DNA of 64,000 nucleotides, taken from the NCBI RefSeq assembly GCF_013167455.1, contig NZ_CP038328.1, one strand, 5' to 3'. The position numbers are program-made. Shown here in pieces: positions 31,101 through 34,100 of this stretch. Each line of letters opens with the position of its first letter. Position 1 is the first letter of the stretch. This DNA comes from Escherichia coli O157:H7 (lineage in GTDB: Bacteria; Pseudomonadota; Gammaproteobacteria; Enterobacterales; Enterobacteriaceae).

Positions 31101-34100
31101 CTCAGCGTACCGCCCGCGCCTGCGCTGAAAGAGGTCGTGGTGGTTAACCCAACGCCGACGCCACTCTCACTCGAAGAACGCAACGATTTGCTGGATTATG
31201 GAAACTGGCGGATGAATGGTCTGCGCTGCTCGCTTGATCCATTGCGTCGTGAGGTGAATGTCACTGCGCTGACTGATGATAAAGCGCTGATGATGATTAG
31301 CTGTGAGGCAGGGGCCTATAACACCATTGATTTGGCATGGATTGTGTCGCGTAAAAAGCCGCTGGCCTCGCGCCCGGTCCGGCTGCGTTTGCCGTTCAAC
31401 AACGGTCAGGAGACGAATGAACTGGAACTGATGAACGCAACATTTGATGAGAAATCGCGTGAACTGGTGACCTTAGCGAAAGGGCGCGGATTAAGCGATT
31501 GTGGCATTCAGGCGCGCTGGCGCTTTGACGGTCAGCGTTTTCGCCTGGTGCGTTACGCCGCAGAACCCACCTGCGATAACTGGCATGGGCCAGACGCCTG
31601 GCCCACGTTGTGGATCACCCGTTAAACAAAATGGCGGGACATGTAGGCCGGATAAGACGCTGTAGGCCGGATAAGACGCGTCAGCGTCGCATCCGGCAAT
31701 CAGCATCCGGCGATCACCATCAGGCACCTTTTACTCCCAGCACCTTATGCGCTTTTGCCACAATATTCTCGGCGGTAAAGCCAAAGAACGGGAACAGCTT
31801 ATCCGCCGGAGCAGATTCCCCATAACCCGTCATCCCGACAATTGCCCCTTTCAGACCAACATACTTGTACCAGTAATCGGCAATACCTGCTTCCACCGCC
31901 ACGCGAGCCGCAACGTTAGAAGGCAACACCGACTCCCGATATTCCTCATCCTGGGCGTCGAAAATATCGGTCGAGGGCAGGGAAACCACGCGAACATTGC
32001 GACCTTCTCCCGCTAATTTCTCCGCCGCTTGCAGGGTGATTTCCATCTCTGAACCGGTGGCAATCAAAATAATATCTGGCTTACCGCCGCTGTCTTTCAG
32101 CACATAACCGCCACGAGCAATCTCTTTAACCTGATCCGGCGTACGTTCCACCTGGGCCAGATTCTGCCTGGAGAGAATCAGTGCCGTCGGTCCGTTGTGG
32201 CGCTCAACCGCCAGCTTCCAGCCCACCGCCGCTTCCACCTGATCGCACGGTCGCCAGGTGCTGAAATTTGGCGTTAAGCGCAGGCTGGCCAGTTGCTCAA
32301 CAGCCTGGTGCGTCGGACCATCTTCGCCCAGACCAATTGAGTCGTGGGTATAAACCATAATCTGCCGCGCTTTCATCAGTGCCGCCATCCGCGCGGCGTT
32401 ACGGGCGTATTCAACAAACATCAGGAACGTTGCGGTATACGGCACAAAGCCGCCGTGGTGCGCAATGCCGTTGGCGATAGCGGTCATGCCAAATTCACGC
32501 ACCCCGTAGTGAATGTAGTTGCCCGCCGGATCTTCCTTCAGCGAAACAGAACCTTTCCAGATGGTCAGGTTGCTGGGAGCCAGATCCGCCGAACCGCCGA
32601 GCAGCTCCGGTAGCATCGGCCCGTAAGCGTTAAGCGTATTTTGCGAAGCCTTACGGGTAGCGATTTTCGCCGGATTCGCCTGCAACTCATTGATATATTT
32701 CTGAGTCGTTTTCTCCCAGTCCTTCGGTAAACCACCGCTCATCCGACGGGTAAACTCTTCTGCCAGTTGCGGATGAGCCTTTTTATAGGCGGCAAACTTC
32801 TCATTCCAGCTCTGCTGCGCTTTTTCGCCTTTTTCGCGGGCATCCCAAGCGTGATAAATATCTTTAGGGATCTCAAATGGCGGATGGTGCCAGCCCAGTT
32901 TTTGCCGTGCCAGCGCCACTTCTTCTTCCCCCAGCGGTGCGCCGTGCGCCTCTTCCTTACCTGCTTTATTCGGCGAACCAAAGCCAATCACCGTACGGCA
33001 GATAATCAGCGACGGCTTATCTTTCACGCTTTGCGCTTCAAGGATTGCTTCCTTCACCGCCTGCGGATCGTGACCGTCGATTTCATGGATCACATGCCAG
33101 TGATAGGCTTCAAAACGTTTTGCCGTATCGTCGGTAAACCAGCCTTCGGTTTCTCCATCAATCGAAATACCGTTGTGATCGTAAAAACCAATCAGCTTGC
33201 CCAGTCCCAGCGTGCCCGCCAGCGAACAGACTTCGTGGGAAATACCTTCCATCAGGCAGCCGTCGCCCATAAACACATAGGTGAAGTGATCGACAATTTC
33301 ATGATCCGGCTGGTTAAACTGCGCCGCCAGTGTACGTTCCGCTATCGCCAGCCCGACGGCGTTCGCCAAACCTTGTCCAAGAGGACCGGTGGTGGTTTCA
33401 ACTCCGGGCGTATAGCCGATTTCCGGGTGGCCAGGGGTTTTCGAATGCAGTTGACGAAAGTTCTTCAGCTCTTCCAGCGGCAGGTCGTAACCGGTCAGAT
33501 GCAGCAAACTGTAGAGCAGCATCGACGCGTGACCGTTGGAAAGAATAAAGCGGTCGCGATCATACCAGGTTGGGTCGGTAGGGTTATGTTTAAGAAAATC
33601 GTTCCACAGCACTTCGGCAATATCAGCCATGCCCATCGGCGCGCCGGGATGACCAGAATTGGCTTTTTGTACCGCATCCATACTGAGTGCGCGAATCGCA
33701 TTGGCAAGGTCTTTTCGGGACATATAACACTCCGTGGCTGGTTTATAGTTTGGCGGCAAGAAGATCTTCCAGTTTGCGTTGATCAACGGCGAACAGACGA
33801 ATGCCTTCAGACAGTTTTTCTACCGCCATCGCATCCTGATTGTGCTCCCAACGGAACTCCGCTTCGCTCATGGGAGCTGGGCGTGGGAACGTCTGAGAAG
33901 GTGGGATTAATTTACGTACCACTGGCGAAACTTTTTCCTGCAGCTCCTTCAGCAAATTCGGTGCGATAGTCAGTCGATCGCAGCCGGTTAAGGCGAGGAT
34001 TTGTTCGGTGCGACGGAAGCTCGCGCCCATCACAATGGTTTCATAGTGGTGTTGCTTATAGTAGTCGTAGATATTGCGCACCGATTTAACGCCCGGATCT

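What the first reader, a model, noticed from the sequence alone, without database searches (positions are those of the whole stretch)
31641..31712. Tandem REP/BIME cluster between convergent ypfG and tktB
Two directly repeated gtaggccggataagacgc units followed by a further REP-like palindrome fill the ypfG/tktB convergent gap. Such BIME arrays bind IHF/gyrase and stabilise upstream mRNA. They are hotspots for strain-to-strain copy-number variation and occasional IS insertion, so this spacer is a likely variable site.
Basis: partly seen in the sequence, partly recalled or inferred. Interest (0 to 1): 0.2.

Follow-up and report, generated by a model that had tools for sequence, protein, structure and literature searches.

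The report
Known REP hairpin with duplicated arms
The 94-base gap between the convergent genes ypfG and tktB holds an already catalogued E. coli REP repeat (REP179): one complete hairpin plus extra copies of each arm, ordinary in kind but clearly length-variable between strains.

Summary
An exact 19-nt tandem duplication, TGTAGGCCGGATAAGACGC x2, lies at 31642-31679. A 14-nt tandem array, GCATCCGGCRATCA, lies at 31689-31716 and decays into the tktB stop codon. These are the only tandem repeats in the 64-kb window.

There is one complete REP (31662-31698), with GTAG, a 7-bp lower stem, the AA/GC bulge, a 5-bp upper stem and a 4-nt loop. It carries one extra left half-arm and one extra right arm. 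Together they fold into a 65-nt nested hairpin on either strand.

It is not a BIME in the strict sense: there is no inverted REP partner, no linker and no IHF consensus. A published table names the K-12 element REP179a-c, so it is already known.

The prediction of a variable site holds in 5,426 E. coli genomes:
- 94/95 nt: about 57%
- 75/76 nt (one left arm): about 24%
- 102 nt, with the REP replaced by a different dispersed repeat: 15.3%
- 80, 109, 123 and 128 nt: rare

IS insertion is at most 0.13%.

The likely role is a bidirectional 3'-UTR RNA hairpin, acting as a decay barrier or partial terminator. This is inferred, not shown. A similar composite sits between djlA and rluA in some strains.

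The parts
30582..31625 (+). ypfG coding sequence (DUF1176 protein); stop codon TAA at 31623-31625
   Evidence: ORF list; RefSeq annotation of the identical O157:H7 record and of K-12
31642..31660 (+). Extra (outer) left half-REP: TGTAGGCCGGATAAGACGC, with GTAG at 31643-31646 and arm GCCGGAT at 31647-31653. It has no loop or right arm of its own.
   Evidence: Exact 19-nt tandem copy. It is absent from the 75/76-nt alleles found in about 24% of E. coli genomes.
31662..31698 (+). The one complete REP (37 nt, z2-like length): GTAG 31662-31665; lower stem GCCGGAT 31666-31672; AA bulge 31673-31674; upper stem GACGC 31675-31679; loop GTCA 31680-31683; GCGTC 31684-31688; GC bulge 31689-31690; ATCCGGC 31691-31697; A 31698
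   Evidence: Sequence; inverted repeat I1/I2; inner helix in both MFE folds. Features match the published REP determinants (PMC8266576) and the crystallised y REP GTAGGACGGATAAGGCGTTTACGCCGCATCCG (PMC3479197). naRNA4 hit of 38 bits at 31665-31718.
31689..31716 (+). 14-nt tandem array of REP right-arm units: GCATCCGGCAATCA (31689-31702, part of the complete REP) and GCATCCGGCGATCA (31703-31716, the extra outer right arm)
   Evidence: The copy number is 1, 2, 3 or 4 in different E. coli genomes.
31717..31726 (+). Degenerate third 14-nt unit CCATCAGGCA. It overlaps the tktB stop codon (31720-31722) and its last two codons. ATCAGGC is the complement of a z-type REP arm, GCCTGAT.
   Evidence: The TRF array extends to 31726. 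In the 128-nt allele L007 the outermost left arm is GCCTGAT and the MFE fold pairs it with this AUCAGGC. In Escherichia sp. MOD1-EC7003 the loss of one unit moves the stop codon into a REP unit, so TktB ends ...VKGAGC*.
31647..31711 (.). Composite nested hairpin (65 nt), predicted for transcripts of either strand. The outer helix pairs 31647-31653 plus 31659-31662 with 31701-31704 plus 31705-31711, and it encloses the REP helix 31666-31697.
   Evidence: RNA MFE -45.1 kcal/mol (+ strand) and -45.0 kcal/mol (- strand); z = -4.8 and -5.5. Alleles with more arms give longer nested helices, down to -58 kcal/mol.
31720..33723 (-). tktB (transketolase 2) coding sequence, last gene of talA-tktB; stop codon TGA is the complement of 31720-31722
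   Evidence: Annotation of the identical record; translation of the 3' end gives ...KVLGVKGA*

Best explanation
The spacer holds one member of the E. coli REP (palindromic unit) family, the element called REP179 in K-12.

It consists of one complete 37-nt REP in the ypfG-sense orientation, with one left half-arm tandemly duplicated (19 nt) and one right-arm unit tandemly duplicated (14 nt). The extra arms lie on opposite sides and are complementary. The region therefore folds, as RNA read from either strand or as a DNA cruciform, into a two-layer nested hairpin.

It is not a BIME.

The arms behave as two small VNTRs that gain and lose units between strains. The most likely cause is replication slippage or unequal recombination; this is inferred.

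No intrinsic terminator exists in the gap. The hairpin therefore most probably acts at the RNA level as a shared 3'-UTR structure for the convergent ypfG and talA-tktB transcripts. It would block 3'-to-5' exonucleases and contribute to partial, possibly Rho-assisted, termination in both directions. This function is inferred from work on other REPs, not shown for this locus.
For: **Identity**
- Exact repeats and palindrome.
- REP determinants present: GTAG, AA/GC bulge, T11, 37 nt.
- Consensus matches with 0 mismatches and enrichment over shuffles.
- At least 40 matching places per genome.
- Sub-threshold hit to the REP-derived Rfam family naRNA4 and to nothing else.
- 'REP179a-c' is listed for talA-tktB in PMC10100675.

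**Not a BIME**
- Definition in PMC3333891.
- Contrast with the true REP/iREP pair at 20327-20392.
- No IHF consensus.

**Nested hairpin**
-.

**VNTR behaviour** (L = number of left arms, R = number of 14-nt right units)
- Observed alleles: L1R2, L2R1, L2R2, L2R3, L2R4, L3R3.
- Frequencies from an evenly spaced sample of 60 rows and from identity bands.
- Left and right copy numbers vary independently, as slippage predicts.

**Function**
- No terminator-like or promoter-like site in 31400-31950.
- About 60% of E. coli REPs lie between convergent genes. REP325 acts both as a partly Rho-dependent terminator and as an mRNA stabiliser (bioRxiv 10.64898/2026.03.23.713779).
- talA-tktB is among the REP-bearing transcripts that rise when ATP-dependent decay is inhibited (PMC10100675).
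- Every sampled genome carries some hairpin-forming repeat in this spacer, either the REP or the 102-nt alternative. None has an empty gap.
Against: - No direct 3'-end, half-life or termination data for this locus were found.
- 15% of genomes lack the REP here, so it is dispensable at this site.
- The outer helix shows no compensatory change at this locus. The G-to-A change in the outer arm of the 95-nt allele simply breaks one pair.
- The z2 assignment rests on length and upper-stem similarity. The lower stem carries G-C where the z2 exemplar from djlA-rluA carries T-A. I recalled the y/z1/z2 consensus figures from memory and could not read them.
- The 19-nt duplication in O157 shows no flanking microhomology (exactly 2.0 copies), which is not the classic slippage signature.
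Confidence: 0.8

Rival explanations
1. One reading: a BIME array that works at the DNA level by binding IHF and DNA gyrase.
For: - REP and BIME DNA is known to interact with gyrase (PMC1475751).
- BIME-1 linkers carry IHF sites (PMC3333891).
- The region is REP-derived.
Against: - No inverted REP partner and no L or S linker.
- No IHF consensus on either strand.
- Gyrase affinity is described for BIME-2 and BIME-1 architectures, and neither is present here.
Confidence: 0.07
2. The composite is a REP nested inside another REP. An inner REP was placed between the arms of an older outer REP, either by inter-locus gene conversion or by TnpA_REP (RAYT)-mediated strand exchange. The outer REP's right arm reaches the tktB stop codon. 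On this view the composite is not the product of local slippage.
For: - A similar composite lies between djlA and rluA in some E. coli strains (S7, ZJ3920). It is 89% identical over 77 nt and has the same 19-nt/14-nt layout.
- At that locus the simple allele is a z2 REP plus a y iREP. The composite allele is exactly 33 nt (19 + 14) longer.
- Its inner REP has a GCCGGAT/ATCCGGC stem, whereas the outer arms are GCCTGAT/ATCAGAC. The inner REP is 35/37 identical to the REP of this window, closer than to the allelic z2 REP.
- In allele L007 the outermost arm GCCTGAT pairs with the ATCAGGC at the tktB stop codon.
- TnpA_REP strand exchange adds REPs in vitro (PMC3333891).
Against: - At ypfG-tktB, left and right copy numbers vary independently: L2R1, L2R3, L2R4, L1R2.
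- The two left copies are 100% identical in O157 and K-12.
- The 95-nt allele can be explained by ordinary recombination between existing alleles.
- The junctions are not at the C|T cleavage dinucleotide in the inferred pre-duplication sequence.
- Only 3 exact junction matches exist among 100,044 species representatives, so this is not a general transposition product.
Confidence: 0.3
3. The hairpin is primarily a translational down-regulator of tktB. A REP helix within 15 nt of a stop codon stalls terminating ribosomes and triggers mRNA cleavage and trans-translation. Arm copy number would then set how close the helix comes to the stop codon.
For: - REPs fewer than 16 nt from a stop codon down-regulate translation (Liang et al. 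2015, as summarised in PMC12306157).
- In the two-arm alleles the outer helix ends at 31711, 8 nt from the tktB stop codon.
- In one-arm alleles the stable helix ends at 31697, 22 nt from the stop codon.
Against: - The primary paper and its gene list could not be read.
- The outer helix is weaker and has an asymmetric 5-nt bulge.
- For ypfG the helix starts 21 nt after the stop codon, outside the limit.
- No expression data by allele exist.
Confidence: 0.15
4. The element has no host function. It is neutral or selfish repeat DNA that persists in a permissive convergent gap, and its length variation is drift.
For: - The REP is replaced by an unrelated repeat in 15.3% of genomes.
- Many length alleles coexist.
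- There is no covariation support for the outer helix.
- Genome-wide, REPs do not uniformly change half-lives.
Against: - No sampled genome has an empty spacer.
- No other terminator is present for two convergent transcription units.
- REP-containing convergent pairs show elevated expression.
Confidence: 0.25

Closest known systems
E. coli REP / palindromic unit (y, z1, z2 types); this copy is REP179 of K-12
   Same: - GTAG tetranucleotide, 7-bp lower stem, AA/GC bulge, upper stem and loop.
- 37 nt long.
- Extragenic, between convergent genes.
- Dispersed in at least 40 copies per genome.
   Different: - One left half-arm and one right-arm unit are tandemly duplicated, giving a nested helix.
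- The stem is a hybrid: z2-like in length and upper stem, but with G-C at the lower-stem position where the z2 exemplar has T-A.
BIME-2 / atypical BIME (tandem z2-y REP pairs; copy number varies between strains)
   Same: - REP-derived.
- Copy number varies at one locus between strains.
- The same REP subtype sits in a genuine z2 + y pair at djlA-rluA.
   Different: - No inverted REP (iREP) partner and no S, L, s, l or r linkers.
- The repeating units are half-arms of 19 and 14 nt, not whole REP pairs.
REP325 / naRNA4 (Rfam RF02564), the model REP acting as a dual terminator-stabiliser 3' UTR element
   Same: - REP hairpin in a 3' UTR.
- Sequence similarity of 38 bits, E = 3e-5.
   Different: - The score is below the gathering threshold (59.5 bits).
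- REP325 is six tandem two-PU repeats inside an operon. This is a single REP between convergent genes.
REPIN (REP doublet forming a long hairpin, Pseudomonas)
   Same: A long composite hairpin built from REP sequence.
   Different: - A REPIN is two complete REPs in inverted orientation, each forming one arm.
- Here the arms of a single REP are repeated in direct orientation on each side.
BoxC repeat (GC-rich dispersed E. coli repeat); named from memory for the alternative 102-nt allele
   Same: The alternative allele carries CCCCTCGCCCCTCTGGGGAGAGGGTTAGGGTGAGGGG. This is a dispersed, hairpin-forming repeat with a median of 7 megablast places per genome.
   Different: - It is unrelated in sequence to REP.

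Membership tests
E. coli REP (group-2 REP: y/z1/z2) | Conserved GTAG tetranucleotide 5' to the foot of the palindrome | tested here: met
   GTAG at 31643-31646 and 31662-31665. Definition in PMC3333891 and PMC8266576.
E. coli REP (group-2 REP: y/z1/z2) | Imperfect palindrome of 29-37 nt with the AA-GC mismatch bulge in the stem, plus conserved T11 | tested here: met
   31662-31698 is 37 nt. GCCGGAT/ATCCGGC forms the lower stem, A12A13 lies opposite GC, and T11 is present (criteria). The first 19-nt unit alone does not meet this, because it is only a half-arm.
E. coli REP (group-2 REP: y/z1/z2) | High-copy, dispersed, extragenic | tested here: met
The features under the matches are 'none', i.e. 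intergenic. In the window the motif occurs 5 times against 0.22 expected.
E. coli REP (group-2 REP: y/z1/z2) | Bound and processed as ssDNA by TnpA_REP (RAYT) | not testable with these tools
   Needs EMSA or a cleavage assay.
E. coli REP (group-2 REP: y/z1/z2) | Listed as a REP in the K-12 reference annotation | tested here: inconclusive
   The copy of NC_000913.3 held here carries no repeat_region features anywhere. Indirect evidence: PMC10100675 lists 'REP179a-c' for talA-tktB.
BIME (bacterial interspersed mosaic element) | Two REPs in inverse orientation (REP + iREP) separated by a linker | tested here: not met
   All GTAG-bearing arms are on the + strand. There is no CTAC-ended iREP in 31626-31719. 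Compare the true pair at 20327-20392.
BIME-1 | Long L linker, frequently with an IHF site | tested here: not met
   No linker is present. WATCAANNNNTTR is absent on both strands of 31601-31740.
BIME-2 / atypical BIME | Tandem z2-y pairs whose number differs between strains | tested here: not met
   Copy number does vary, but the varying units are 19-nt and 14-nt half-arms, not z2-y pairs.
naRNA4 (Rfam RF02564) | Score at or above the gathering threshold of 59.5 bits | tested here: not met
   38.0 bits on the - strand and 26.8 bits on the + strand.
Intrinsic (Rho-independent) terminator | GC-rich hairpin immediately followed by a U-tract | tested here: not met
   0 terminator-like sites in 31400-31950. 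There is no T-run after either side of the hairpin.
VNTR / minisatellite | Head-to-tail units whose copy number is polymorphic in the population | tested here: met
   The 19-nt unit occurs in 1-3 copies and the 14-nt unit in 1-4 copies across E. coli genomes.
BoxC repeat (alternative 102-nt allele only) | Match to the published BoxC consensus | not tested
PMC2267715 gives only counts. Dispersal is confirmed, with a median of 7 places per genome.

The most novel reading that the evidence does not exclude
This REP subtype forms 'onion' hairpins: REP arms stacked in direct repeats on both sides of a core REP. The form recurs at two or more convergent-gene spacers (ypfG-tktB and djlA-rluA) and is polymorphic within E. 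coli. At djlA-rluA the inner REP looks imported from another locus. That would be a rare natural trace of recent REP mobilisation or inter-locus conversion into the loop of an existing REP. Layer number would tune how far the helix reaches towards the tktB stop codon. The 14-nt array already overlaps that stop codon, and in a cryptic Escherichia clade the loss of one unit rewrites the TktB C-terminus.
Probability: 0.2. Interest if true: 0.4.

Novelty: already known. Interest (0 to 1): 0.17.

Why it matters
For genome annotation the element is routine: a catalogued REP between convergent genes.

Its practical value is as a well-resolved example of how REP loci vary inside one species. The variation takes three forms: slippage of half-arms, stacking into nested helices, and wholesale replacement by another repeat family in 15% of genomes.

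This gives natural allelic series (L1R2, L2R2, L2R3, L2R4, L3R3 and a non-REP allele). These could be used to test whether REP helix length tunes 3'-end stability, bidirectional termination or stop-codon-proximal ribosome stalling for talA-tktB.

The spacer is also a cheap length marker that separates E. coli lineages.

Tried and rejected
**K-12 REP annotation.** The copy of NC_000913.3 held here has no repeat_region features, not even at the known RIP1 site. The absence is therefore uninformative.

**y/z1/z2 consensus sequences.**
- They are only in figures.
- Gilson 1991 (PMC333889) and Liang 2015 (PMC4427526) are not held.
- I used the crystallised y REP sequence, the published lengths and determinants, and in-session exemplars instead.

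**Rfam.** No family reaches its threshold. Only naRNA4 appears, below threshold. An Antizyme_FSE hit on the alternative allele is noise (E = 0.19).

**Supplements of the 2026 REP preprint.** tktB appears only in an expression table, with no terminator or REP entry.

**IS insertion.** The genomes lacking a contiguous match could not be listed. Only an upper bound is available: at most 7 of 5,425.

**BoxC-like motif in the window.** 0 matches.

**Terminator and promoter scans.** Nothing was found in the REP allele or the alternative allele.

**RAYT cleavage as the origin of the 19-nt duplication.** I considered and down-weighted this. The CT dinucleotide at the junction is created by the duplication. 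It is not present at the inferred breakpoints.

**Literature search for 'nested' with BIME or palindromic unit.** No relevant paper was found. This is weak evidence, because the library lacks most subscription papers.

**Outgroup reconstruction.** Not done.
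Full report
**Where we are.** The window is E. coli O157:H7. Bases 31300-32100 are 100% identical to NZ_AP018488 and 98.3% identical to K-12. RefSeq annotation of the identical record, and of MG1655, places ypfG (+, 30582-31625) and tktB (-, 31720-33723; last gene of talA-tktB) convergently. The spacer between them, 31626-31719, is 94 nt.

**What the sequence shows.** The spacer reads ACAAAATGGCGGGACA-[TGTAGGCCGGATAAGACGC]-[TGTAGGCCGGATAAGACGC]-GTCA-GCGTC-[GCATCCGGCAATCA]-[GCATCCGGCGATCA]-CCA.
- The repeat finder and TRF report an exact 19-nt tandem pair at 31642-31679 (score 76).
- They also report a 14-nt array from 31689, whose third, degenerate unit (CCATCAGGCA) runs across the tktB stop codon to 31726.
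- These are the only tandem repeats scoring >=50 in the 64-kb window.
- The second 19-mer, the GTCA loop and GCGTCGCATCCGGC form the one complete palindrome.
- The first 19-mer is a spare left arm. The second 14-mer is a spare right arm.

It is one complete REP with one duplicated arm on each side.

**Is it REP?** Yes. The published determinants for E. coli REPs are (PMC3333891, PMC8266576):
- a 5' GTAG;
- an imperfect palindrome of 29 (z1), 35 (y) or 37 (z2) nt;
- the AA-GC bulge;
- conserved T11 and lower-stem positions.

The segment 31662-31698 has all of them and is 37 nt long. It aligns closely with the crystallised y REP GTAGGACGGATAAGGCGTTTACGCCGCATCCG (PMC3479197), apart from a longer upper stem.

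Further support:
- GTAGGCCKGATAAG matches both units with 0 mismatches.
- GCCGGATAAGRCG is found 5 times against 0.22 expected.
- The only Rfam family that responds is the REP325-derived naRNA4, below threshold at 38 bits against 59.5.
- PMC10100675 lists talA-tktB with 'REP179a-c', so the element is already catalogued in K-12 as a three-unit REP.

The K-12 record held here carries no repeat features at all, so I could not check coordinates directly.

**Is it a BIME?** No, by the definition in PMC3333891: a REP plus an inverted iREP separated by a linker.
- All arms carrying GTAG are on the + strand, and there is no iREP.
- The window itself contains a true pair for contrast at 20327-20392: a z-type REP, the linker ATCATG, and a y iREP.
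- The IHF site belongs to the BIME-1 L linker. No WATCAANNNNTTR match is present on either strand.
- Gyrase affinity is described for BIME-2 and BIME-1 (PMC1475751).

The IHF and gyrase parts of the interpretation are thus unsupported.

**Structure.** Folded as RNA, either strand gives a single nested hairpin.
- The inner helix is the REP (31666-31697).
- The outer helix pairs GCCGGAU plus GCUG (31647-31653, 31659-31662) with CAGC plus AUCCGGC (31701-31711).
- The MFE is about -45 kcal/mol. The z-scores are -4.8 and -5.5, and 0 of 200 shuffles fold as well.
- No intrinsic terminator or sigma-70 promoter consensus lies in 31400-31950.

**Variation between strains.** 5,425 of 5,426 complete E. 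coli genomes carry the locus. Sampled alleles are given below as L = left arms and R = 14-nt right units.

| Spacer length | Composition |
|---|---|
| 75/76 nt | L1R2 |
| 80 nt | L2R1 |
| 94/95 nt | L2R2 (the 1-nt difference is a G-run at 31636-31638) |
| 109 nt | L2R3 |
| 123 nt | L2R4 |
| 128 nt | L3R3 |
| 102 nt | REP replaced by another repeat; only the last 14-nt unit is kept |

The replacing sequence is CCCAGATGCGCCCCTAAAAAGCGCACGGACCGTCCCCTCGCCCCTCTGGGGAGAGGGTTAGGGTGAGGGGAACATA.

Frequencies come from an evenly spaced sample of 60 ranked hits:
- 94 nt: 19 rows
- 95 nt: 15 rows
- 75/76 nt: 14 rows
- 102 nt: 9 rows
- 80 nt: 1 row
- 123 nt: 1 row
- 1 row was a plasmid fragment

Exact counts agree. 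1,273 records fall in the 80-90% identity band, which is the 19-nt gap class. 831 genomes (15.3%) carry the 102-nt allele.

The replacing element is itself a dispersed repeat, with a median of 7 megablast places per genome. From memory it resembles BoxC, but I did not test that.

At most 7 genomes lack a contiguous match across the spacer. IS insertion here is therefore rare or absent.

The units that vary are half-arms, not whole REPs or BIMEs.

**How the arms arose.** Independent variation of left and right counts, and 100% identity of the two left copies in O157 and K-12, favour slippage or unequal recombination on each side.

A rival emerged from related loci. A scan of 100,044 species representatives for a half-arm junction, GATAAGRCG-N(0-6)-GTAGRYCKGATAAG, gave only three hits:
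- The same ypfG-tktB spacer in Escherichia sp. MOD1-EC7003. One 14-nt unit is missing there, so TktB ends ...VKGAGC* with its stop codon inside a REP unit.
- A Kosakonia cowanii locus.
- The djlA-rluA spacer of E. albertii.

In E. coli strains S7 and ZJ3920, the djlA-rluA spacer holds a composite that is 89% identical over 77 nt to 31638-31714 and has the same 19/14-nt layout. Strain 64 has the simple form there: a z2 REP with a GCCTGAT/ATCAGGC stem, a linker and a y iREP. The composite allele is exactly 33 nt (19 + 14) longer. Its inner REP has GCCGGAT/ATCCGGC arms and is 35/37 identical to the REP of this window. Its outer arms stay T/A.

That pattern looks like a REP placed between the arms of another REP, by conversion or by TnpA_REP strand exchange. 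Such strand exchange can add REPs in vitro (PMC3333891).

At ypfG-tktB, allele L007 has an outermost GCCTGAT arm. The MFE fold pairs it with the AUCAGGC overlapping the tktB stop codon, giving three layers at -58 kcal/mol.

I rate nested insertion or conversion at about 0.3 as the origin of the composite. It does not change what the element is.

**Function (inferred).** About 60% of E. coli REPs sit between convergent genes. About 30% of convergent gaps hold one, and such gene pairs show elevated expression. The model REP325 is both a partly Rho-dependent terminator and a decay barrier (bioRxiv 10.64898/2026.03.23.713779). REP-bearing transcripts, talA-tktB among them, rise when ATP-dependent degradosome activity is inhibited (PMC10100675).

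With no intrinsic terminator in the gap, the most likely role is a shared, bidirectional 3'-UTR hairpin. A secondary possibility concerns translation. In two-arm alleles the outer helix ends 8 nt from the tktB stop codon. That is inside the <16-nt range in which REPs down-regulate translation (Liang 2015, as summarised in PMC12306157). In one-arm alleles the distance is 22 nt.

None of this is demonstrated for this locus. The 15% of genomes without the REP show that it is dispensable here, although none of the sampled genomes has an empty spacer.

**Verdict.** This is a real, correctly located, already catalogued REP element. 'BIME/IHF/gyrase' is a mislabel. 'Variable site' is right. Interest is low. 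The nested-arm architecture, its second locus and the REP-to-other-repeat allele are modest extras.

Noticed in passing
L008/L009/L012 (ypfG-tktB spacer of other E. coli), equivalent to window 31633-31700: In 831 of 5,426 genomes (15.3%) the REP is replaced by a 102-nt spacer. It carries a different GC-rich dispersed repeat (…CCCCTCGCCCCTCTGGGGAGAGGGTTAGGGTGAGGGG…) with a median of 7 megablast places per genome. Only the last 14-nt REP-arm unit is kept. It resembles BoxC from memory, which I did not verify.
   Followed up: partly
L018 1489-1643, L020, L021, L015 (djlA-rluA spacer): A second convergent spacer carries a similar nested REP composite in some E. coli strains and in E. albertii (2-3 left arms), next to a y iREP. 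Other strains have a plain z2 + y BIME there. K-12 has yabP/yabQ and no REP at that position.
   Followed up: partly
L017 600-720 (Escherichia sp. MOD1-EC7003 ypfG-tktB): Loss of one 14-nt unit fuses the REP array to tktB. TktB ends ...VKGAGC* instead of ...VKGA*, with the stop codon inside a REP arm unit.
   Followed up: yes
window 31717-31726: The last two codons and the stop codon of tktB (GGT GCC TGA) lie in a degenerate REP-arm unit. ATCAGGC is the complement of the z-type arm GCCTGAT. The gene end and the repeat array therefore overlap.
   Followed up: partly
window 20327-20392: A canonical BIME lies between convergent ypfN and ypfH: a short z-type REP (GTAGGCCTGATAAGACCGTATCAGGC), the linker ATCATG, and a y iREP (GCCGGATGCGGCGTTAACGCCTTATCCGGCCAC).
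   Followed up: partly
window 15656-15718: A single y REP (GTAGTTCGGATAAGGCGTTCACGCCGCATCCGACA) lies between bamC and purC. It is flanked by TGTCGGAC on the left and CATCCGGCA on the right, which pair as an outer helix. This is a second, weaker nested-looking REP in the window.
   Followed up: no
window 44952-45032: A degenerate REP pair lies in the eutG-eutH gap: a z2-like arm on the - strand and a y-like REP, GTAGTGCGGATAAGGCTTCACGCAGCATCCGC, on the + strand.
   Followed up: no
window 31636-31638: A G-run upstream of the REP is GGG in O157 and K-12 but GGGG in about 25% of genomes. This accounts for the 94 vs 95 nt and 75 vs 76 nt allele pairs.
   Followed up: yes
H90 / H124 (plasmid records NZ_CP104632.1 and NZ_JBRERL010000005.1): A few plasmid records carry near-identical copies of the 37-nt REP, for example a 38-nt match at 94.7% identity. 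In one search, 402 of 217,417 matching places were on plasmids.
   Followed up: no
L022 7760-8461 (O157:H7 PV15-279, eut operon; within the window near 37,400-38,100): eutQ is annotated as a pseudogene with an internal stop in the O157:H7 record that is identical to the window.
   Followed up: no
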